Of a DNA stretch of 64,000 nt, positions 48,134 through 62,504 are shown piece by piece (position 1 is the stretch's first letter; every line of letters begins with the position of its first letter). The DNA lies in the NCBI GenBank assembly GCA_000004985.1, contig GG738864.1; one strand, given 5' to 3'. Source of the stretch: Naegleria gruberi. Lineage: Eukaryota. The notes beneath the pieces were generated by a model. It did no database searches. It was not told where the DNA came from and saw nothing but the letters and a program-made list of their open reading frames with translations. Made by a program: the position numbers and the translations under genes.

Positions 48134-50253
48134 TCACAAATAATCTAAATTATCAATTTGAGTCTTTTCTTTGGATTCTTCAATATTTTCATTTGATTTC
48201 TCTATAGAATTAGTTAATTGTTGCTCATCAACTTGTTGAATGGGCGAATTGTGATTAGATTCCAATTTGATATCTTTCAATTCTTCCTGATTATTATTAT
48301 TATTAGTATCATTGCTTGTAATGTTATGAAGAGTAACTTGTTGAGAAGTGGTTAAATCATTAAGGGATGCAACTTTCCATTGCTTTAGAATATTTCTTAC
48401 TTCCTTATTTTGACTCTTCAACCTTTCGAATACATCTGTCATATCCTCAATACAATGCCATTGAATATTATCAAAAAAGTTTGTTTCCAATAGTGGTGTA
48501 GTTTCAATTGCTTTGGATATTTGTTCAAACATTTGAGAAAGTTTTGGAAAGTTCAATTCGAGAGGTGAATTTGGTTTCAGATAAGTTTTAGTAATGTGAA
48601 GTGCAGCTTGCTTTCTATTTTTCTTACTTGTCAATTTAAATCTTTCAATATCTTGATAACATAACACAGATTCAGGACAGTAACTTGAAATCGTTATTAG
48701 AAACTAAACTAATTTAACACTTACCTTCTTCTTGCAAAATCCAATAAAATATTAAAAGTTTTCTTACTTTTTAAAAAGTGTTCCAGTTCAGACTCTTCCA
48801 CTCTTTCCTTTTTCGTGCGATTCAATAATACTATAGAATATAATATTGGCAACAAGACACATATCACAACCTCAGTAAATGAATAAACCATTAAGGTAAA
48901 CCCAAATGGAACAAAAAAATCAGTCAACTTGGTCACCTGTACCAAAAATCCACAAATGGCAAATAAAATAATTGAAAAGAATTGCAATAATGTCAATAAT
49001 AATGTCTCTCTCTTAATAAACCACGTATCTCTAGGAATGATAAAACACAACACTAAAAAGACAATCTCCACCACAATATAAAACAATGATTCAATGGCTA
49101 CAATAATTGTAATGGCATTGGTAATGACACATCCTCTCGAGGATACAAAGAAACCACCATCTCCCATGAAAATTCTTTGATTATTTGATTTGATTGGATC
49201 TTGATTGTAAATTCCCTCCTCAACAGCTCCAAAAAATATGAATAGTAAAATGTGAATAATGAATGAAGTGAGATAGGTGGCAATTACAAATTTCTGACTC
49301 AGTAAAATGTTGAAAATCTTTTGAATTTTGACATTCTTTTTCATTTCCAATTCATTTTCAATCCAATATGAATAATTATCACCATCAGATGAAGTGGCAT
49401 CATTCGAATCTTGATTATTATTGAAAATGCTTTCAACATTTGACAATTGACTTTTTGGAGAATTCATATTTGAATTATTTGGAACTACTTTCATTGAAGA
49501 TTTCAAATTTTCATGATTAGTTTCCTTTCTATTCGAATCCATTTTAGTTTTTTGTAAATTCAACTTGTGCATAAAAAACAATCTCCACAATCTAAACACA
49601 CTTGGAAGTAATATTCCAGGTGGAACAATAAAAAACGATAAAATATAAATACTACAAGGATAAATACGTCTTCCTATAATAAACCTTAAACATGTCAAAA
49701 TAATAAATCCAGAATTTGACAGAATGGTCATGAACAAGTAAGTTATATTTCTAGCCTTTATATGTGGAGAATTTCTTCTCAAATATAATCCAATTCCACT
49801 CACAATTAATACTATTATATATACCAATAAAAATACAATTGAAACAGCAGATGTCAACCAAGTGTCAGGACAAATAGAATAAAGTAGATTAGGTCCATCT
49901 CTACTGAAATCACCTAATTGAAATAATATTGGATTACATGTTCCATAATTTGTAGAATTGGTAGAATTAAATAACATTGTGTCATTATAAATGTCATATT
50001 TGTTTTTAATGGAGATTAAATTAAACATTGTCTTTTCGTAGTAATAAATATAATGATGACCATTCATAGATGCAGATAATTCACCACCAAAGTTCATAGA
50101 TAGTGGATTTATGGCCATAACTTGTTGATAATTAGGTACAAGAAATAACGATACTAGTAAGAGAAGAATAATTTGATGTTGTTGTTGTTGGCGTTGTTGG
50201 AGAAGACACTTTTTGAAAGAATGCAACAAGTGTTGATGAGATAAGAGGTGCAT
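48134..50253 (-). CDS. Seven-transmembrane receptor fused to a C-terminal RGS domain (7TM-RGS); 2 exons
   Basis: Exon 1 50253-48725 encodes a signal/TM-like N-terminus, a Cys-containing ectodomain (CNPILFQLGDFSRDGPNLLYSICPDTWLT) and 7 hydrophobic helices, ending ...LEHFLKSKKTFNILLDFARRR. A 41-nt intron 48684-48724 (AG|GTAAGT..TTTCAAG, phase 2). Exon 2 48683-48134 continues the RGS domain (S-YCPESVLCYQDIERFKLTSKKNRKQAALHITKTYL...FDNIQWHCIEDMTDVFERLKSQ). Confidence 0.7.
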
Positions 50254-50435
50254 TTTTTGATTGTGTCAATTATTTGCCGGCATCTTTTCAAAGTGTCATC
50301 AACATTCAGTCTGAACGCTCACAAACCATTTTGGTTGATTGGGTCTTTTATGAAATAAAATAAGAATGGATTTTAACTTGGGTTTCTAATAAATTACACA
50401 TGTCAAACACAAAATCATATGGCTCGCCACGTTAA

Positions 50436-50506
50436 CCGTCTCGGGAGGAATCGAACCTCCGTCAATGGATTCAAAGTCCACTATGCTACCATTACACCAC
50501 GAGACG
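50436..50506 (-). tRNA. tRNA-Gln (anticodon UUG)
   Basis: Minus-strand sequence CGTCTCG TG GTGT AATGGTA GCAT A GTGGA CTTTGAA TCCAT TGAC GGAGG TTCGATT CCTCC CGAGACG + G. Perfect 7-bp acceptor stem. Anticodon loop CU-UUG-AA. Close to the eukaryotic tRNA-Gln consensus. Confidence 0.85.
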
Positions 50507-50580
50507 AGCACATTCATGATGAAAATAAACCTCATTTGCACGCGAAAAAATTGGGTTCAAGATTTTAACCCGAGTCTTAT

Positions 50581-52518
50581 TTACTTTATTATGATATCAG
50601 TTAATTGTTTGTCATTAGAGTGTTTTAACAGTTTCATTACAAACTTTTCCACACTCTGATATATTCCCTTATTAAATTTCCAATACAATAAAATAAAAGT
50701 TTCTGGTCTCCAAAAACGTAGTTCATTCAATCTGTCACATGCCAATTCATAAATACATCCATTATTAGGATAACAAATAGGACTTGACAATTTGTATGAA
50801 TAATATACACCTCTATATTTGATATCAATAGAATAATTATCATATATTAAAATATCACAGTCAGCATGACGTAAATATTTGATTAGTTTCTTTTCTTCTG
50901 CCTGGTTTCCAATATCTTTTTCATCATCCTCCTCATCTTCACTATCATCTCTTGAATAATTCTTCAATTGAATATCTTTTTCAAATATTTTCCTGACATT
51001 TCCTCCTCTTTCAATTATTATTCCACAATTATCATCACTAATAAATCCAGTTATACCATTAGTAGTATCAAAATCCATATCAGTAAAATAGTAAGGTAAT
51101 TCCAATTCTTTAAACGCGTAAACATTACGACGTGATTTCTCACCCATAAATGGTAAAACATCTTGCAAATATTATTGAACTATTCCAATACCTGAACAAC
51201 TCACCTTCTCCACATAAAAAAATTCTTCCATTATCAGTAAGTGCAGCTACCTTATTTTTATATCCAAGAACCTTAATAAATTTTGGCTTTTGACATTTTT
51301 TACCTTTCAACTTGATTTCACATTCACCCAATTCAACATCTTGAACATTTTTCATACCTCTTGCAGCAGCTCCATCTCCATTATATCCAATACTATATAA
51401 ATTTCCAATAGATGATAAAATAAAAAGAGCCCACATATTAGCTGATATGAATTCAATATTATTAAATAATATATTATTACCAGTATTAATCTCAAAGATA
51501 TTATAACAAGATGGTGGCTTTGAAATTATTGGTTGTGAGGGATTGATATTCTTTTCAATTATTTTACCATGAGTTGAAATACATTTCGTAAATGGTTTAA
51601 CCTTCTCATCATACAAGTCACTTTCCCTTCTAATTCCAAATAATTTGTTAGAATGTGTGCAAATGAATAGAAATTGTTTTGAAATTGCTAAATGTAGACC
51701 GAGGGAGGTGAGCTAAAAAATGTTACATCACGGTAATTTCGCGCCAACCAATAACCGCTGAAAGTTGTCTGTTCTGACCGTTAAATATTCAACAAAAAAA
51801 AACAACAAACAACAATTACTCATCATGATTTCATCATCACCCTGCTAAATAGGTATATTGGTTGGTATTCCCACCTTCAGCATGCTACCTTGAGAAGCCA
51901 CCATGAGGAGAGTTCTCCCTTTGCTTCCTTCCTCACCAGCCATTACTACATTCACCTCACCAAAACATCATCTAGATAAGTGCCTGCCCATTTACTTGAA
52001 ATTGTTGGTACATTAAAGCGAAGGTTCATGTACAAGAACCCAGAAGTACTTGTTTCTAGAAGAACAAGTGGTAATTGATACTTTGAACACACTGTCTCAC
52101 TCTTGGTCCAATAAACCTTCGGCTCGACTTTAACAAATTTTTGTTTTTTGAGTGACTTCTTAATTTTTTAAAAATATTTGTCAATCCTTCTCACCTCCCA
52201 CGGTCTAGCTAAATGTTTAACATGTTTCCATTCAAATTTCAATGGATCATGATTTTTAAATTCAATCACTAATTCACATATTTTTAAATCAAGAGGCTTG
52301 CTAGTATTATGATTATCATTTATAATGATACATTTAATTTCATTGGGATTTTCACTTAAATTTAATCCTAAACATGCAATAGTACCATATCTGAAACAAT
52401 CCGAAACTGCATAATGAATTTGCCAATTTGATAAATAATTAGAAATAATTCGCGTTTCTAATTTTTGATTCAGGAGTGAAATGCTCCCAATAAAACCATA
52501 CTTCTCTCGTTGTGCCAT
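50581..52518 (-). CDS. RCC1-like repeat protein; 3 exons with one atypically long intron
   Basis: Exon 1 52518-52195 (ATG in aaaaATGg context; ...KHVKHLARPWE). Donor GAG|GTGAGA. A 482-nt intron 51713-52194. Exon 2 51712-51205 (LTSLGLHLAISKQFLFICTHSNKLFGIRRESDLYDEKVKPFTKCISTHGK...VAALTDNGRIFLCGEG). A 43-nt intron 51162-51204 (G|GTGAGT..TTGCAAG). Exon 3 51161-50581. Both junctions are in phase and stop-free. Joining exon 1 across the long intron is inference. Confidence 0.5.
51693..51712. repeat. Inverted-repeat arm A (pairs with 52190-52209), lying at the acceptor end of the long intron
   Basis: Plus strand tgtagaccgagggaggtgag. Its reverse complement ctcacctccctcggtctaca matches ctcacctcccacggtctagc at 52190-52209 in 17 of the first 18 positions. 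Confidence 0.55.
51795..52130 (-). ncRNA. Candidate structured ncRNA (SRP/7SL-like?) embedded in the long intron, same strand as the host gene
   Basis: A 450-bp ORF-free, GC-richer block. The minus-strand reading shows a 5' strand (GCCGAAGG), two hairpins (CTTGTTCT-TCTAGA-AACAAG and GGGTTC-TTGTACATG-GAACC, loop resembling UGUAAY), then the complementary 3' strand (CCTTCGC). This is Alu-domain-like topology. It also carries GGTGAGGAAGGAAGCAAAGG, an 11/11 match to the SRP-RNA helix-8 core GGAAGGAAGCA, and ends in a T9 run (plus 51794-51802). Not verified by a covariance model. Confidence 0.3.
52190..52209. repeat. Inverted-repeat arm B, spanning the 5' splice site (GTGAG) plus the last 15 nt of exon 1
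   Basis: Plus strand ctcacctcccacggtctagc. See arm A for the match. Confidence 0.55.
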
Positions 52519-52590
52519 TTTTTTTAACTAAATTGTAAATTTCGATATTGATCAAATTTATTTTGAAGATTTAAAGAAAATATAAAATTA

Positions 52591-53133
52591 CTACTTTGCT
52601 GATTCATTAATTAAATCATCTCTAATCTGTGTAATAATTCTACCTAATAAATTCAAACCTTTCCATTGAGATCTATCATGAGCTCTCTGATCCTTCTCTT
52701 CCAATCCAATTCCCCAAATTTTATCATATGGAGAAGCTTCAACATATTCAACATCCAATCTGGAAAGTAAATCTCTTCTCATTTCTTCATTTTGTGTGAA
52801 TTTTGCATAATTTCCCTCATAAACAATTCGATCTCTATTGGCTTCCCATTGATTGGTATCAAAATTCTTGACTTTTCTACCAAATTCTTTACATTGCTTT
52901 GGATCGGAGGTTTTTAAAATCTTTTCTGCCATTTCATGATCATTGAATAATTGTGCCTTCTGATACATCATGTATTGTTCACAAGTTACAAATGTTTTAC
53001 CATCAATTTTCATTGGTGCTTTAACCCATTGTGAATAGTAACCTCCTTTAGTACCCCAAAAGAAGTGAAATTTGGAATATTTTGTTGCTGGGCAGAGGTA
53101 TTGTTTAATTGTGTTGTTGTTGGATGAAGACAT
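52591..53133 (-). CDS. NADAR-domain protein (YbiA/DUF1768 family)
   Basis: 180 aa. FFWGTKGGYYSQW...FVTCEQYMMYQKAQLF...YAKFTQNEEMRRDLLSRLDVEYVEASPYDKIWGIGLEE...GLNLLGRIITQIRDDL matches the NADAR signature (F[YF]...SN[FW]...WE..R...[YF].KF.QN...L..T......E.SP.D..WGIG). Confidence 0.7.
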   Translation of the reverse strand: MSSSNNNTIKQYLCPATKYSKFHFFWGTKGGYYSQWVKAPMKIDGKTFVTCEQYMMYQKAQLFNDHEMAEKILKTSDPKQCKEFGRKVKNFDTNQWEANRDRIVYEGNYAKFTQNEEMRRDLLSRLDVEYVEASPYDKIWGIGLEEKDQRAHDRSQWKGLNLLGRIITQIRDDLINESAK

Positions 53134-56254: not shown

Positions 56255-58615
56255 TTAAACAATTTGTGCAGCTGTTTTTGGATGTAAATTTGCTTGATTT
56301 GGATCAACAGTTTCTAATTCTTCACCATGATAAACATATTTAACATTTGAAACATCAATAGGTGGAATATATTTATCAAATCCATTTCTGTAATCATTAA
56401 TAGATTTTTCACCATTTTTAGTAATATAATTTGGATGTCTAAATCTAGGACAACAAAAATATTTTTGTACAAAATTAGTACCAGTTGTAAAGAAATGAAT
56501 AATTAAATAAATAATATAAAGTAAAAATGCAGAAAAGAAACAAATATGATAAGGAGTAATAATAGAAAGTACAGGTTGACTAGTATTTGATGGATCATAA
56601 TTTAAACTTATTGTAAAGTAAATTCTTGTAATTGACATTAAAATATATCTTATTAAAAATGCAATTGATAAAAAATTGAGTGCAGTAGGTGATAACAAGT
56701 CAACTTCTTTACCTTCAGCTCTATAAATTTTTAAAATATTAAATTTATCAACAAAATAACATGCCATTAATCCACCTGTTATTATAAATAATGATACTGG
56801 AAATAATCCACTAAATACAATACCAATAAACATATTTTTTAATTGATATGAATATCTATCTATATATATTTATATTTATATTAAAATTAAATTAAAAAAT
56901 AAATTAAAAAATATTAAAATATTAAAATATTAAAATGATAAAATTTAAAAAAAAACATACATTCATAAGAATAAACAGGTGGTTCATGTGCCTTATTTAA
57001 ATCTTCTTGTGTAACACTTGTTGCAATTCTATATCTTTTTAAAAAATAATGATAAATTCCTAATAAGGCATCCTTAATAGTATTTGATGCAACACTTGTA
57101 CATGTTACAAAAAATAATGAACTGTACCATGCTGAACTTTCAACTAGAATTGGAATATTAGCATTACCAATTGTAAATGCTCCTTTTGGTATAATAACAC
57201 TATTATCTGTCATTTCAGAATAATAACTGCCAACTGTCGGTGATGTTAAATATACAAATAAATAGGCTATTGTTGTTAAGAAGGAACCAAATGTTACTTT
57301 CATCATTAAACTTTGTTTAGCATTTAATTGAAAACGATGTTTTTCAAAATTAGATAATACTATTATTATTGTAATATTATTGTAAAGTATTTAATATTTA
57401 ATATTAAATAAAACTTACAATATAAAATATAGGTCATTACTTGTACAAGAATAAAAACCAAAACTGACAATCCGAGACTCGCAAAAATTTGCCAATTTTG
57501 GAAGGAAGGATTTTCAATCCAATCAGAAATGGAAATACTTGAAAATTTGTCCTTTTTCAAAACTTCTAAAACAACAGCTACTGCAACCACTGCACCTGAA
57601 AATAGTACTGTTGCTAAAAATGATACTGAACGTCTACTATATTTGGAAATTACTGAATATTCTCTAAAAATATTAAAAATAAATATAAAATAAATATAAA
57701 ATAAATATTTAAATTAAATTAAAAATAACATACAAATTTTCCCAAATAATATCATGAGGTTCATGTGCAGGTTCAACTCTAATTCTATGTTTCTTTTTAG
57801 AATAAGTACCAGATTTAGAACAAATTCTCTGAATCATTGGTCTATTAAATGTATGAAGACATTTAAATCTAGACTTTTCATTTTCAAATGCTGAATTCAT
57901 TACCATTTTAATAATAAAATAAATATTAAAATAAATATAAAAATATAAAAATATAAAAATAAATATAAATATTAAATATATAAATATATAAAGATATAAA
58001 TAACATACTAATAAAAGCATCACCTGTACATCTATAAGCTTTCTTTCTCATACTTTTAGCAATATCTTTTTGAATAAAATTTAAATAAATTGAAAAGTAA
58101 ATTCTCTTAATTTTTTCAATTAAAACAAAACAACCACCTCTACTAATTACAATATCACATTTTTCAATTTCCTTAATTAGTTCATCTTTCTTTTTTATAG
58201 ATTTACTTATATCACCACAATCTAAGGCTAGTGCAATATTATCTAATTTACCAAATTTACTAAAATGTTTATATAATCGTTTTTTACCATGTGCTGCTTC
58301 TGTTGATGGTAAATCACGAATATGTACTCTAATTATTATTAAATATTATTTAAATAGTATATATATGGTAATATTTAAATAATATTATATTTAAATAATT
58401 TAATTATATTTAATAAATTAAAAAATAAAACTAACTACTTACGAATAATCAGCTACTGAAATAGTTCTCTTTGCAACTTTATCATTAATTCTATTAGTTA
58501 TCCAAAAAAGGAAACGTAAATAAACAATAGAAAATAAAGCAATTACAACTTCAAGAGTACCAAATGCAATATTAACACCACCACTTGCATTTAAATCATA
58601 GTTAGCCATACTCAT
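56255..58615 (-). CDS. OSCA/TMEM63/CSC1-type (DUF221) stress-gated cation channel; at least 6 exons
   Basis: Exon 1 58615-58443 (MSMANYDLNASGGVNIAFGTLEVVIALFSIVYLRFLFWITNRINDKVAKRTISVADYS, i.e. TM0). Introns on the plus strand are 58329-58442, 57891-58008, 57664-57733, 57360-57418 and 56860-56960 (donors GTAAGT/GTATGT). Exons 58328-58009 (cytosolic domain ...GDAFI), 57890-57734 (TFENEKSRF...RIRVEPAHEPHDIIWENL, the PHM7_cyt hallmark), 57663-57419, 57359-56961 and 56859-56255 (7TM region ...FIGIVFSGLFPVSLFIITGG...). The ORF-track ORF 57709-58023 reads through an intron. Confidence 0.7.
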
Positions 58616-59122: not shown

Positions 59123-59228
59123 NNNNNNNNNNNNNNNNNNNNNNNNNNNNNNNNNNNNNNNNNNNNNNNNNNNNNNNNNNNNNNNNNNNNNNNNNNNNNN
59201 NNNNNNNNNNNNNNNNNNNNNNNNNNNN
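59123..59228. other. Assembly gap (106 N)
   Basis: Run of n in the sequence. Confidence 0.95.
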
Positions 59229-59692: not shown

Positions 59693-61877
59693 ATGGTAAT
59701 TAAAAAACTTTTCAACATGCACACTCCTCCAACAACCTTCATCATATTTCATAAACAATTCAAAAAAAATCAACACAATATGACAACACCACTTATATTA
59801 CATCACCAAGAGAAACAACATTTTAGAGCAACAGCAGCAGTTATAAGAATTATTGTAATATTTTCATGTATTTTATTTTTTTTATCTCTATTAGTTCAAT
59901 GTAGTAGTGATAATGATCTTTATGAAACTCAACTATTTAATAGAATATATAATACTAATTTTATGTGGTTACAAAATGTTGAATCATCTTCGTCATCATA
60001 TATATCATCATCATATCAATCATTATCTCTTGATATGAACTATCAAAATAATTCAACATTAAATTCAACATCATCTTTAAATTATGGTGATTGTAATCCA
60101 ATATTATTTGAATTGGGTAATTTTAGTAGAGATGGTACAAATGTAATGTATTCAATATGTCCAGATACATGGTTGACTCCTGCTGTTTCAATTGTATTTT
60201 TAACAGGTTATTTAATTGCATTGTTATTGTGTGGAATATTTTTATTCCTCAAAAGGAAATCACCACATGTTAAAGCTAGAAATTTATCATATATGGTAAT
60301 GACTATTTTATCTAATTCTGGATTTATTATTATTATTTGTTTAAGATTTATTATAGGTAGAAGAATATATCCATGTTCTATATATATTTTATCCTATTTT
60401 ATTATTCCACCTGGTATTTTATTACCTTCCATATTTAGATTATGGAGATTGTATTTCATGTATAAGGAAAATTTACAAAAAATGAAAATGAATGAATATA
60501 AAAAGGATGAAAAAATTACAACTACTAATAATAATCAATTATCTCAAATTTCAAATAATACTACTACTAATACAACTACTAATACAATTAGTTCACTTTC
60601 GAATAAGAAAATAAATTCATCCTCATCTAACAATTTAACCTATGATAATGATACAGAAAGTACAGATGATACAAATTCATATTGGAATGATTATGAATTG
60701 GAATTTAAAAAACATGAAAAACTTCATAAATTATATTCCTTTCTATTAAGTAACAAATTTGTAATAGTTTCCTATTTAGTATCATTTTGTTTACATATAT
60801 TACTATTTATAATATTAGGTTCAATTGAGGAAGGTATTTACAGTAGAGATTCATCAAAGCCTAGAGTTTTTTTAGGTGATGGCGGATTTTTTGTATCAAC
60901 TCGTGGTTGTGTTATTAATAATTCAATTGTAATAATTTTGGCGGTAGAAGCTATTTTCTACATTGTAGTGGAAATTGTATTCCTAGTATTGAGTTTTATT
61001 ACACCGAGAGATACTTGGTTTATTAAGAGAGAAACATTGGTTTTAATTACTTTACAATTTTTAGCAATTATTTTATTTGCAATTTGTGGATTTTTAGATG
61101 CTATTGCTAATTTTACAGATTATTTTGTTCCATTTGGATTTGTTTTAATGACCTATTCATTTGTGGAAGTTATTGTTTGTGTTTTATTTCCAATTTTAGT
61201 ATATTCTAATGGGAAAATTAAAAATGGAAAGGATTCTGAATTGGAACAATTTTTAATGAATAAGAGAACTTTTACAATTTTACTTGATTTTGCAAGAAGA
61301 AGGTTTGTTTATTTAAATTAATTTTATTTAATTTATGTATTTTAATTTTTTTTTTAATTTAAATTAATTTATATTTTTAATTTAATTTAAAATAGTTATT
61401 GTCCAGAATCAGTATTATGTTATAGAGATATAGAAAGATATAAATTAACAAGTAAAAAGAATAGAAAGAAAGCAGCATTAAAAATTACAAAAACCTATTT
61501 AAAAACAGGTTCACCATTAGAATTAAATTTTCCAAAATTGAATCAAACATTTGAAGAATATTCACAAATAATTAATAATTCCAATAATAATCAATCATTA
61601 TTAGAAACTAGTTTATTTGAATCAATTCAATTACATTGTCTAGATGATATGAGAGATGTATTCGATCGATTGAAAAATCAAAGTAAGGAAACTAGAAATA
61701 TTTTAGAACAATGGAAATTACAACAACAATTAAAGGAAATGGATGATATTAATATTAATATGAATAATAATAATAGTACTACTATTACAATGCAACAACA
61801 ATTTGAAGATGACTCATATTTACCAAATGTAGAATCAATTGATTTATCAAATATTAATAATAATCAAAATAGTCTTN
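59693..61877 (+). CDS. Second 7TM-RGS receptor (paralog of 48134-50253, opposite orientation); 3' end lost in a scaffold gap
   Basis: Exon 1 59693-61302 (same ectodomain motif CNPILFELGNFSRDGTNVMYSICPDTWLTP, 7 TM helices, ...LEQFLMNKRTFTILLDFARRR). A 93-nt intron 61303-61395 (AG|GTTTGT..AAAATAG, same phase-2 position as the paralog). Exon 2 from 61396 (S-YCPESVLCYRDIERYKLTSKKNRKKAALKITKTYL...FESIQLHCLDDMRDVFDRLKNQ...) runs into N at 61878. The start may instead be the internal ATG (MTTPLILHHQ...). Confidence 0.65.
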
Positions 61878-62504
61878 NNNNNNNNNNNNNNNNNNNNNNN
61901 NNNNNNNNNNNNNNNNNNNNNNNNNNNNNNNNNNNNNNNNNNNNNNNNNNNNNNNNNNNNNNNNNNNNNNNNNNNNNNNNNNNNNNNNNNNNNNNNNNNN
62001 NNNNNNNNNNNNNNNNNNNNNNNNNNNNNNNNNNNNNNNNNNNNNNNNNNNNNNNNNNNNNNNNNNNNNNNNNNNNNNNNNNNNNNNNNNNNNNNNNNNN
62101 NNNNNNNNNNNNNNNNNNNNNNNNNNNNNNNNNNNNNNNNNNNNNNNNNNNNNNNNNNNNNNNNNNNNNNNNNNNNNNNNNNNNNNNNNNNNNNNNNNNN
62201 NNNNNNNNNNNNNNNNNNNNNNNNNNNNNNNNNNNNNNNNNNNNNNNNNNNNNNNNNNNNNNNNNNNNNNNNNNNNNNNNNNNNNNNNNNNNNNNNNNNN
62301 NNNNNNNNNNNNNNNNNNNNNNNNNNNNNNNNNNNNNNNNNNNNNNNNNNNNNNNNNNNNNNNNNNNNNNNNNNNNNNNNNNNNNNNNNNNNNNNNNNNN
62401 NNNNNNNNNNNNNNNNNNNNNNNNNNNNNNNNNNNNNNNNNNNNNNNNNNNNNNNNNNNNNNNNNNNNNNNNNNNNNNNNNNNNNNNNNNNNNNNNNNNN
62501 NNNN
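61878..62504. other. Assembly gap (627 N)
   Basis: Run of n. ORF-track entries spanning it (61538-62521, 61839-62597, 61864-62517) are artefacts of translating N. Confidence 0.95.

What the first reader, a model, noticed from the sequence alone, without database searches (positions are those of the whole stretch)
51693..52209. Atypically long, GC-richer intron bounded by an 18-bp inverted repeat and carrying a candidate SRP-like ncRNA
Every other intron I could define here is 38-120 nt and A/T-rich. The RCC1-like gene instead has a 482-nt intron (51713-52194) with higher GC. There is no ORF on either strand. Its two boundaries carry an imperfect inverted repeat: ctcacctcccacggtctagc at 52190-52209, and the reverse complement of 51693-51712 (ctcacctccctcggtctaca), matching 17/18. 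One arm contains the GTGAG donor plus the last 15 nt of exon 1. The other arm is the first 20 nt of exon 2, directly after the AG. In the pre-mRNA these could form a stem that sequesters the 5' splice site and juxtaposes both junctions. A repeat like this is also the footprint expected of a MITE or introner-type element that became an intron. Independently, the interior read on the gene's strand shows an SRP Alu-domain-like arrangement. It has 5' strand GCCGAAGG, hairpin CTTGTTCT/AACAAG, hairpin GGGTTC-TTGTACATG-GAACC with a UGUAAY-like loop, then CCTTCGC. It also has GGTGAGGAAGGAAGCAAAGG, whose GGAAGGAAGCA core is identical to the most conserved SRP-RNA helix-8 segment. It ends in a T9 run typical of Pol III termination. 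The candidate RNA is about 335 nt, which is SRP-RNA sized. Either reading (an intron-embedded Pol III ncRNA or a transposon-derived intron with splice-site-containing TIRs) would be unusual.
Basis: partly seen in the sequence, partly recalled or inferred. Interest (0 to 1): 0.72.

Follow-up and report, generated by a model that had tools for sequence, protein, structure and literature searches.

The report
Small transposon posing as an intron
The odd long "intron" in this Naegleria gruberi gene is a 513-bp miniature DNA transposon that landed inside a coding exon and appears to carry its own splice signals, so it can probably be cut out of the RNA. It is not an SRP-like RNA gene.

Summary
An 18-nt inverted repeat (17/18 matching) sits at 51695-51712 and 52190-52207, and it bounds a 482-nt GT-AG interval. 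That interval is 4-12 times longer and more GC-rich than the 12 clear introns in the window.

Each arm is flanked on the outside by a perfect 8-bp direct repeat, CATTTAGC on the gene strand (52215-52208 and 51694-51687). This is the signature of a cut-and-paste transposon: TIR, 513-bp body, TIR, plus a target-site duplication. Deleting the element and one repeat copy restores a continuous reading frame. That restored frame aligns without a gap to the only paralogue.

The window is Naegleria gruberi. The element has no coding capacity. Its 5' inverted repeat contains GAG|GTGAG. UGUAAC-A-U6-AG sits directly against its 3' inverted repeat. Predicted splicing leaves 31 + 8 = 39 nt, or 13 codons, in frame. 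Splicing is inferred, not shown.

The SRP / Pol III RNA reading fails. No Rfam family matches at E<=10, and the interior folds no better than shuffled sequence.

Copy number in the genome could not be tested. The closest known cases are maize Ds1 and the Aureococcus introners. This is a new member of a known kind.

The parts
51695..52207 (-). Whole non-autonomous transposon (MITE), 513 bp, GC 0.388, in sense orientation relative to the host gene
   Evidence: It is bounded by 18-nt inverted repeats and an 8-bp target-site duplication. There is no ORF above 46 aa. The six-frame translation has no homologue at E<=10 among 5.8 billion proteins. The window holds no second copy.
52208..52215 (-). 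Target-site duplication, upstream copy (CATTTAGC on the gene strand). It encodes part of ..H L A in exon 1.
   Evidence: Read directly from the sequence. It is the only 8-bp flanking duplication among 24 inverted repeats in the window, and shuffles never reach 6 bp.
52190..52207 (-). 5' terminal inverted repeat, TAGACCGTGGGAGGTGAG. It contains the predicted 5' splice site GAG|GTGAG(A). The last exon base is 52195 and the GT is 52194-52193, so the donor lies 13 nt inside the element.
   Evidence: The donor matches the local GTRAG consensus and differs only at +6 (A where 11 of 12 local introns have T).
51713..52194 (-). Predicted spliceosomal intron, 482 nt, GT-AG, phase 0, made entirely of element DNA
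   Evidence: Joining 52195 to 51712 gives a 470-aa ORF with no stop codon. It is the only GT-AG pair found from this donor that reaches the full downstream exon-2 ORF, entering right at the 3' repeat; two later acceptors inside exon 2 also keep the frame. Splicing itself has not been shown.
51713..51727 (-). 3' splice region carried by the element: UGUAAC (51727-51722, branch-point-like), A, U6 (51720-51715), AG (51714-51713). It directly abuts the 3' TIR.
   Evidence: Read directly from the sequence. Base-pairing probability here is low to moderate, so the region is accessible.
51695..51712 (-). 3' terminal inverted repeat, CTCACCTCCCTCGGTCTA on the gene strand. It is predicted to be retained in the mRNA as the first 18 nt of exon 2.
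51687..51694 (-). Target-site duplication, downstream copy (CATTTAGC)
52195..52518 (-). Exon 1 of the host gene (108 codons). The last 13 nt are element DNA and the 8 nt before them are the upstream duplication copy.
   Evidence: It aligns with the N-terminus of paralogue P0003.
52168..52170 (-). Stop codon reached if the element is not spliced. The truncated product would be 116 aa, ending ..ARPWEVRRIDKYF*.
51205..51712 (-). Exon 2 of the host gene. Its first 18 nt are the 3' TIR and the next 8 nt are the downstream duplication copy.
   Evidence: From MWALF onward it is identical to the NCBI N. gruberi protein P0001 for 226 aa, reading across the next intron.
51162..51204 (-). Ordinary second intron, 43 nt, GTGAGT..CAAG
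   Evidence: The junction ..LCGE|DVLPF.. is present in the NCBI models P0001 and P0002.
50581..51161 (-). Exon 3 of the host gene, through the stop codon
51795..52130 (-). It is interior element sequence with no support as an RNA gene.
   Evidence: No Rfam match at E<=10. Fold z = +0.54, with 69 of 100 shuffles folding at least as well.

Best explanation
A 513-bp non-autonomous cut-and-paste DNA transposon (a MITE) is inserted in sense orientation into what used to be one continuous coding exon. Its 8-bp target-site duplication and TAG... termini make it hAT-like. The host is a Naegleria gruberi gene that carries RCC1-like repeats.

The element carries both splice signals close to its ends. 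A donor, GAG|GTGAGA, lies 13 nt inside its 5' inverted repeat. A branch-like UGUAAC, a U6 tract and an AG sit directly against the inner edge of its 3' inverted repeat. The spliceosome can therefore remove 482 of the 521 inserted bases as a GT-AG intron.

The remaining 39 nt stay in frame: 13 nt of the 5' repeat, 18 nt of the 3' repeat, and the 8-bp duplication. They add 13 residues (RPWELTSLGLHLA). The duplicated 'HLA' leaves the flanking strand sequence available on either side of what would be an enlarged loop.

Shown: the repeats, the duplication, the restored ancestral ORF, the lack of coding or RNA-family content, and the presence and in-frame geometry of the splice signals.

Inferred: that the signals are actually used, that the superfamily is hAT, and that the element belongs to a multi-copy family.
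For: The inverted repeat is 17/18 with 0 matches expected by chance. The perfect 8-bp flanking duplication is unique among 24 inverted repeats in the window and is never reached in 30 shuffles.

Deleting the element plus one duplication copy gives a 457-aa ORF. Over the first 200 residues that ORF aligns with paralogue P0003 ungapped across the insertion point (WKHVKHLAISKQFLFICT against WKDVKHMAYSQGFLFLST). It scores 68.2 bits, against 53.1 bits with a shifted, gapped alignment for the version carrying the insert.

The element has no ORF above 46 aa and no protein homologue in any of its six frames at E<=10.

The donor matches the local GTRAG consensus, and the acceptor has a U6 tract followed by AG. 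Predicted splicing is in frame with no stop and yields a 470-aa protein.

Mechanistic precedents exist. An exonic maize Ds1 is a hAT element with an 8-bp duplication that begins with TAG. It supplies donors 12-33 nt from one end and acceptors within 24 nt of the other (PMC5432752). Aureococcus introners carry both splice sites and add 4 + 8 = 12 nt (PMC9860276).
Against: No transcript evidence is available. The NCBI/JGI gene models (P0001, P0002) do not use this intron; they start at the first ATG downstream of the element.

At equilibrium the 5' splice site is fully paired with the 3' repeat (-32.4 kcal/mol, p about 1.0), which could block U1 binding. The intron is 4-12 times longer than any other in the window, and its +6 base is atypical.

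The perfect duplication and the near-perfect repeats indicate a young insertion. The intact ORFs on both sides therefore do not prove that the gene still works.

No second copy was found anywhere I could search. A published survey found no introner family in N. gruberi NEG-M.

For hAT membership, the fifth base of the repeat (C) departs from YARNG, and the duplication does not fit nTnnnnAn. Both consensuses are quoted from my own knowledge.
Confidence: 0.6

Rival explanations
1. The same MITE insertion, but it is not spliced, or only poorly. The allele is then simply knocked out. Translation stops 8 codons into the element, giving a 116-aa fragment, and the rest of the gene is silent or expressed from an internal start. 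The splice-like signals are fortuitous.
For: All the transposon evidence applies here too. The published gene models start downstream of the element and ignore exon 1. The 5' splice site is locked in a -32.4 kcal/mol stem at equilibrium. The intron would be far longer than any other in the window. Because the insertion looks young, intact ORFs carry little weight. A paralogue exists that could cover loss of function.
Against: A consensus-like donor lies 13 nt from one end, and a UGUAAC-U6-AG acceptor sits exactly at the inner edge of the other repeat. Together they give an in-frame, stop-free product. That combination is improbable for random sequence, and it mirrors elements known to be spliced. 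The 3' arm is transcribed about 480 nt after the donor, so U1 could bind before the stem can form (inference). The published models are themselves unreliable, because they fuse this gene to its neighbour across a tRNA gene.
Confidence: 0.33
2. An ordinary old spliceosomal intron that happens to be long, with the inverted and direct repeats at its borders arising by chance or by local duplication.
For: The borders are GT-AG and the frame is preserved.
Against: An 18-nt inverted repeat and a perfect 8-bp direct repeat in exact transposon geometry have zero expectation in shuffles. The repeat arms extend into what would be exon sequence. The paralogue has neither the 13 residues nor a gap at this position.
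Confidence: 0.03
3. The interior encodes a functional small RNA hosted in the intron: an SRP-like or other Pol III transcript, or a snoRNA.
For: Hairpin-forming segments are present, together with an 11-mer GGAAGGAAGCA and a T9 run. By my own recollection the 11-mer also occurs in bacterial 4.5S RNA. There is a weak SNORD113-like match at 51758-51833 (17.3 bits, E = 2.6, gathering score 36) that contains a C-box-like AUGAUGA.
Against: No SRP, RNase P/MRP or snRNA model matches at E<=10 on either strand, and nothing reaches gathering score. The 341-nt candidate has fold z = +0.54. The significant folding of the whole element (z = -3.7) comes with the terminal inverted-repeat stem closing the structure. 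No CUGA D box exists in 51713-51830 on the gene strand.
Confidence: 0.02
4. The element is removed from the RNA by a non-spliceosomal route that depends on end-pairing, like the nonconventional introns of euglenids. Those are also thought to derive from MITEs and occur in the same supergroup, Discoba.
For: The inverted repeats would bring the two ends together in a strong stem. Euglenid nonconventional introns pair their ends and carry duplication-like repeats at their borders (PMC11282704).
Against: No such intron class is reported in Heterolobosea, as far as my searches and knowledge go. Canonical GT-AG signals are present and are sufficient to explain removal. The euglenid pairing pattern (+4..+6 with -8..-6) does not correspond to an 18-bp terminal stem.
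Confidence: 0.02

Closest known systems
Maize Ds1 / Ac-Ds non-autonomous hAT elements spliced out of exons (Wessler 1991, as summarised in PMC5432752)
   Same: Both are small non-coding elements of about 400-500 bp with short terminal inverted repeats beginning TAG and an 8-bp target-site duplication. Both carry donor sites a dozen or so nucleotides inside one terminus and acceptors within about 24 nt of the other. An exonic insertion can therefore be removed as an intron that leaves a short element-derived footprint.
   Different: The host is a heterolobosean amoeboflagellate, not a plant. The terminal sequences are unrelated (TAGACCGTGGG.. against TAGGGATGAAA, the latter from my own knowledge). 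No autonomous partner or transposase is known here, and neither splicing nor mobility has been demonstrated.
Aureococcus introners (family 4; Gozashti et al. 2022, PMC9860276, Fig. 2F-G)
   Same: Both are DNA-transposon-type elements with an 8-bp duplication that carry both splice sites. Both leave a footprint divisible by three. There it is 4 nt of element plus the 8-nt duplication, adding 4 residues. Here it is 31 + 8 nt, adding 13 residues.
   Different: Those are multi-copy families defined by many similar annotated introns of roughly 30-650 nt. Here a single copy is known, and the same survey scored N. gruberi NEG-M as lacking introners. The footprint here is three times longer, and the donor lies inside the inverted repeat.
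Micromonas pusilla introner elements (Huff, Zilberman & Roy 2016, as described in PMC11282704)
   Same: Both are MITE-like, with terminal inverted repeats, a target-site duplication and built-in splice capacity.
   Different: The Micromonas elements have a 3-bp duplication, carry only one splice site and recruit the other from the duplication, so the mRNA length does not change. Here both sites are carried by the element and 39 nt are added.
Nonconventional introns of euglenids and MITE-derived non-canonical introns of Fritillaria borealis (PMC11282704)
   Same: All show inverted-repeat pairing that brings the intron ends together, duplication-like repeats at the borders and a presumed MITE origin. 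Euglenids are Discoba, like Naegleria.
   Different: Those introns lack GT-AG borders and use an altered or unknown excision route. This element has canonical GT-AG signals placed inside the paired ends.

Membership tests
MITE / non-autonomous cut-and-paste DNA transposon | Terminal inverted repeats at both ends | tested here: met
   18 nt, 17/18 complementary, 0 expected by chance
MITE / non-autonomous cut-and-paste DNA transposon | Target-site duplication immediately outside the repeats | tested here: met
   A perfect 8-bp CATTTAGC at 52215-52208 and 51694-51687. It is unique in the window, and shuffles never reach 6 bp.
MITE / non-autonomous cut-and-paste DNA transposon | Small size and no coding capacity | tested here: met
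   513 bp. The longest ORF is 46 aa. The six-frame translation has no homologue at E<=10.
MITE / non-autonomous cut-and-paste DNA transposon | A reconstructable empty site (the sequence is continuous without the element) | tested here: met
   Removing the element plus one duplication copy gives a continuous 457-aa ORF. It aligns ungapped with paralogue P0003 across the site. No true allelic or orthologous empty site was available.
MITE / non-autonomous cut-and-paste DNA transposon | Multiple dispersed copies in the genome | not testable with these tools
   The N. gruberi genome is not in any searchable collection. There is no second copy in the 64-kb window. Viral, metagenome and prokaryote scans gave only chance single-arm hits or nothing.
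hAT superfamily | 8-bp target-site duplication | tested here: met
   8 bp. It could be read as 9 bp if the terminal A of the repeat is counted, but that makes the termini asymmetric.
hAT superfamily | Termini matching 5'-YARNG (consensus from my own knowledge) | tested here: inconclusive
   TAGAC matches 4 of 5 positions. It shares the TAG start with Ds1.
hAT superfamily | Autonomous partner encoding a hAT transposase with the same termini | not testable with these tools
   No transposase domain was found in the ten largest ORFs of the window.
Introner (intron-generating transposon family, in the sense of Huff 2016 and Gozashti 2022) | The element supplies splice site(s), so an insertion into an exon is removable as an intron | tested here: inconclusive
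   Both signals are present and give an in-frame product. Their use has not been shown. The donor is sequestered in a stem at equilibrium.
Introner (intron-generating transposon family, in the sense of Huff 2016 and Gozashti 2022) | A family of at least 4 sequence-similar introns at unrelated positions | not testable with these tools
   Only one copy is known. The published survey scored N. gruberi NEG-M and N. fowleri as having no introner family. That pipeline depends on annotated introns, and this one is not annotated.
U2-type GT-AG spliceosomal intron | GT..AG borders, branch-like motif, pyrimidine tract, frame preserved | tested here: met
   GAG|GTGAGA ... UGUAAC-A-U6-AG|C. The spliced ORF is 470 aa.
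U2-type GT-AG spliceosomal intron | Observed spliced transcript | not testable with these tools
   No transcript data are available. No protein in the databases spans the junction.
SRP RNA (Rfam SRP clan: RF00017 and relatives) | A match to an SRP covariance model (Alu and S domains) | tested here: not met
   No SRP family matches at E<=10 in 51500-52400 on either strand, and none reaches gathering score in the window. Fold z = +0.54.
Box C/D snoRNA | C box (RUGAUGA) and D box (CUGA) brought together by a terminal stem | tested here: not met
   The SNORD113-like match scores 17.3 bits (gathering score 36, E = 2.6). A C-box-like AUGAUGA is present, but there is no CUGA in 51713-51830 on the gene strand.

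The most novel reading that the evidence does not exclude
This copy is the visible tip of an unannotated family of intron-generating transposons in Naegleria, which would be the first in Heterolobosea / Discoba. The 5' splice site is built into the terminal inverted repeat, so it is present at both ends. Every sense insertion would add the same 39-nt, frame-neutral footprint. Pairing of the repeats would juxtapose the splice sites in the pre-mRNA. Such a family would be a possible mechanistic bridge between canonical introners and the end-paired nonconventional introns of the related euglenids.
Probability: 0.15. Interest if true: 0.65.

Novelty: new member of a known kind. Interest (0 to 1): 0.45.

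Why it matters
If the predicted splicing is real, this is an intron gain caught young. The duplication is perfect, the repeats are nearly perfect, and the ancestral exon can still be reconstructed. The lineage, Heterolobosea, is one in which a systematic survey reported no transposon-derived introns.

It would show that a MITE can neutralise its own exonic insertion at the cost of a fixed 13-residue loop. It would also give a simple experimental handle for asking whether repeat pairing helps or hinders splice-site use: a single junction RT-PCR, or presence/absence typing across strains.

If it is not spliced, it is an ordinary gene-disrupting MITE insertion. In either case the published gene models at this locus are wrong, and the SRP-RNA lead can be dropped.

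Tried and rejected
1. SRP / Pol III RNA. An Rfam search at gathering score over the whole window found only two tRNAs. A permissive search of 51500-52400 on both strands returned five chance-level hits and no SRP, RNase P/MRP or snRNA model. The interior fold has z = +0.54. Rejected.

2. Intronic snoRNA. The SNORD113-like hit has E = 2.6 and the region has no D box. Rejected.

3. Other copies in the window. blastn with word size 7 found only the self-match and low-complexity noise.

4. Other copies elsewhere.
- A scan of viral contigs for the repeat gave 5 loci. All belong to one phage lineage at about 50% GC, with a single arm and no interior similarity, so this is a chance match.
- Two scans with subterminal 20-23-mers gave 0 hits.
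- The metagenome scan gave 2 hits at 45% and 68% GC, each with a single arm, which is chance.
- A two-arm pattern against prokaryote genomes gave 0 hits.

5. A search of 5.8 billion proteins for translated copies or spliced footprints, using a six-frame composite query, found nothing at E<=10.

6. Exact-sequence look-ups intended to fetch N. gruberi contigs, including the alternate-haplotype contig that encodes P0002, all failed.

7. A wider family search with P0003 against 1.84 billion representatives was meant to find orthologues spanning the insertion site. Beyond the query itself and the window gene's own allele model (P0002), which starts downstream of the insertion site, it found only generic RCC1-repeat hits to residues about 120-310 (one further hit, P0010, matches the C-terminal part, 387-478). 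No additional protein covers the insertion site.

8. Literature searches for Naegleria introners, MITEs or hAT elements found nothing specific.

9. Precise restoration of the original mRNA by canonical splicing is impossible. No GT occurs in or next to the upstream duplication copy.
Full report
**Where the window comes from.** The spliced product of the gene that carries the feature matches two NCBI "predicted protein [Naegleria gruberi]" entries. P0001 is identical to the window translation for 226 consecutive residues starting at MWALF, and this stretch reads across a 43-nt intron. The window is 30.9% GC and contains two runs of N, which is consistent with a draft scaffold. Neighbouring ORFs are ordinary eukaryotic genes: NADAR, CFAP58, a serine carboxypeptidase, and F-box and PH-domain proteins.

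**Checking the observation.**
- Allowing up to 3 mismatches, those two arms are the only matches in 64 kb, and shuffles give none.
- The interval between the proposed splice sites (52194..51713 on the minus strand) is 482 nt at GC 0.37.
- Twelve introns that I could define from ORF continuity are 38-114 nt with GC 0.07-0.33, and they begin GTRAGT.
- The composition profile shows a GC bump of 0.40-0.42 centred on the element.
- No ORF longer than 46 aa lies inside it.

On the gene strand the borders read ..aaaCATTTAGC|TAGACCGTGGGAGGTGAG...CTCACCTCCCTCGGTCTA|CATTTAGCaatt... The two arms are therefore flanked on the outside by a perfect 8-bp direct repeat, at 52215-52208 and 51694-51687. An inverted repeat with a flanking direct repeat is the signature of a cut-and-paste DNA transposon with its target-site duplication.

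I scanned the window for this geometry. Of 24 inverted repeats of at least 16 nt with at most one mismatch and lying within 3 kb of each other, this is the only one with a duplication longer than 2 bp. It also has the most GC-rich arms of the 24 (0.61). In 30 composition-preserving shuffles the longest flanking duplication was 5 bp.

The element is thus 51695-52207, 513 bp, and the insertion totals 521 bp.

**The ancestral exon can be rebuilt.** Removing the element and one duplication copy joins ..AAA CAT TTA GC|A ATT TCA.. in frame and gives a continuous 457-aa ORF. The only full-length relative in 5.8 billion proteins is an N. gruberi paralogue, P0003 (32% identity, 91% coverage). Over the first 200 residues, the rebuilt protein aligns to it without a gap across the insertion point: WKHVKHLAISKQFLFICT against WKDVKHMAYSQGFLFLST, 68.2 bits. 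The version carrying the insert scores 53.1 bits and forces a shifted, gapped alignment. The insertion therefore interrupted a pre-existing coding exon. Exon 1 and exon 2 are two halves of one gene, not two genes.

**How it probably works.** The element brings splice signals with it.
- The donor GAG|GTGAGA lies inside the 5' repeat, 13 nt from the element's end. It matches the local consensus except at +6.
- At the other end, UGUAAC, then A, then U6, then AG sit directly against the inner edge of the 3' repeat.
- Using these sites removes 482 nt and leaves 13 + 18 nt of the repeats plus the 8-nt duplication. That is 39 nt, or 13 codons (RPWELTSLGLHLA), with no stop, for a 470-aa product.
- The footprint is 39 nt for any sense insertion, so the frame is always kept. 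The leading TAG would make one of the three codon phases a nonsense insertion. The present copy sits in a permissive phase.
- Without splicing, translation ends 8 codons into the element, giving a 116-aa product.

This is the behaviour described for exonic maize Ds1. Ds1 is a hAT element with an 8-bp duplication that begins with TAG, has donors 12-33 nt from one terminus, and has acceptors within 24 nt of the other (PMC5432752). It is also the behaviour of the Aureococcus introners, which carry both splice sites and add 4 + 8 = 12 nt (PMC9860276).

**What weakens the splicing step.**
- There is no transcript evidence.
- The deposited gene models start at the first ATG after the element. They also run on into the neighbouring 7TM-RGS gene across a tRNA-Gln gene. 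They neither support nor credibly oppose the intron.
- The two arms form a -32.4 kcal/mol duplex. In a 701-nt pre-mRNA context the donor positions -3 to +5 are paired with probability about 1.0. The whole element folds significantly better than shuffles (z = -3.7), with the terminal stem closing the structure. Such a stem could hide the donor from U1.
- Against that, the 3' arm is transcribed about 480 nt after the donor, so co-transcriptional recognition is possible (inference).
- The insertion looks young, so the intact flanking ORFs do not prove continued function.

I put the transposon insertion at about 0.93 and actual splicing at roughly 0.6.

**The RNA-gene reading.**
- At gathering score, Rfam finds only two tRNAs in the window.
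- A permissive search of 51500-52400 on both strands returns five chance-level hits with E between 0.28 and 9.6. None is an SRP, RNase P/MRP or snRNA model.
- The 341-nt candidate folds at -83.7 kcal/mol against a shuffle mean of -86.4 (z = +0.54).
- The best RNA-like hit inside the element is SNORD113-like (E = 2.6). It has a C-box-like AUGAUGA but no CUGA D box.
- The 11-mer GGAAGGAAGCA does, from my recollection, occur in bacterial 4.5S RNA. An isolated purine 11-mer without its helix partner is not evidence of an SRP RNA.

This reading is rejected.

**Is it a family?** This is the main open point. I found no second copy in any of the following:
- the window itself;
- viral contigs, where five hits all belong to one 50%-GC phage lineage with a single arm, and two further scans returned nothing;
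- the metagenome collection, where two unrelated single-arm hits appeared;
- prokaryote genomes;
- translated form among 5.8 billion proteins.

None of these collections contains the N. gruberi genome, and exact look-ups for its proteins all fail. These negatives therefore say little.

Gozashti et al. scored N. gruberi NEG-M and N. fowleri as lacking introners. Their method needs at least four similar annotated introns, and this intron is not annotated.

**Classification.**
- As a MITE, every feature I could test is met: the repeats, the duplication, the small size, the lack of coding capacity, and a rebuildable empty site.
- As a hAT element, the 8-bp duplication fits and the TAGAC terminus fits YARNG at 4 of 5 positions. 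No transposase partner is known, so "hAT-like" is an inference.
- As an introner in the strict sense, meaning a proliferating intron-generating family, membership is unproven.

The closest functional analogues are Ds1 and the Aureococcus introners. The end-paired nonconventional introns of euglenids (PMC11282704) are an intriguing relative within Discoba, but they differ in lacking GT-AG borders.

**Verdict.** The feature is a transposon with splice-site-bearing inverted repeats and not an SRP-like RNA. It is a new member of a known kind and of moderate interest. The interest would rise if RNA data show the predicted junction or if the genome holds further copies in genes.

Noticed in passing
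window 48721-51205 (minus strand), with tRNA-Gln at 50435-50507: The NCBI/JGI N. gruberi models P0001 (804 aa) and P0002 (755 aa) start inside exon 2 of the RCC1-like gene. They then run on into the downstream 7TM-RGS gene (ORF 48721-50253), skipping the real C-terminus and spanning a tRNA-Gln gene. These look like mis-fused gene models.
   Followed up: partly
window 52159-52194 and 51713-51960 (minus strand): An alternative in-frame path exists. It runs from the repeat's donor to an AG at 52159 (a 36-nt mini-intron), then through a 198-nt open segment of the element (52158-51961), then from a second GGTGAG donor at 51960 to the same acceptor at 51713. This would exonize 66 element codons. The sense strand carries three GGTGAG motifs (52195, 51961, 51937). 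The 36-nt intron's acceptor is A-rich and weak.
   Followed up: partly
window 51695-51712 (plus strand reading): Because the donor motif is part of the inverted repeat, the antisense orientation also begins TAGACCGAGGGAG|GTGAGC. In that orientation the far terminus ..GGTCTA followed by a G-initial duplication would create an AG. The element might therefore offer splice signals in both orientations. This was not analysed further.
   Followed up: no
window 48964-48988 and 51542-51566: A 25-nt inverted repeat (92% complementary, 19 nt perfect: TAAAATAATTGAAAAGAAT) links the coding regions of the 7TM-RGS gene and exon 2 of the RCC1-like gene. It is AT-rich and has no flanking duplication. Its significance is unknown.
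   Followed up: no
window 57360-57418 and 58329-58442 (minus strand): Two introns have extremely low GC (0.10 and 0.07). They lie in a very AT-rich stretch (about 56.8-58.9 kb) that is full of low-complexity inverted repeats.
   Followed up: no
window 59123-59228 and 61877-62504: Runs of N (106 and 628 bases) mark assembly gaps. ORFs listed around 61.5-62.6 kb overlap the second gap and are unreliable.
   Followed up: no
L001-L005 (IMG/VR contigs), e.g. L002 4227-4249: One lineage of phage contigs at about 50% GC shares a 23-nt match (22/23, 95.7% identity; its first 18 nt, the repeat itself, are exact) with the element's 3' repeat region: TAGACCGAGGGAGGTGAGCGAAA in the phage against TAGACCGAGGGAGGTGAGCTAAA in the window. 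It looks like a ribosome-binding-site context. Only a single arm is present, so I judged it coincidental.
   Followed up: yes
window 52519-52590: Only 72 bp separate the stop codon of the upstream NADAR-domain gene (52591-53133, minus strand; Pfam E = 4e-52) from the ATG of the RCC1-like gene. Any promoter must be tiny or must lie within the NADAR gene.
   Followed up: no
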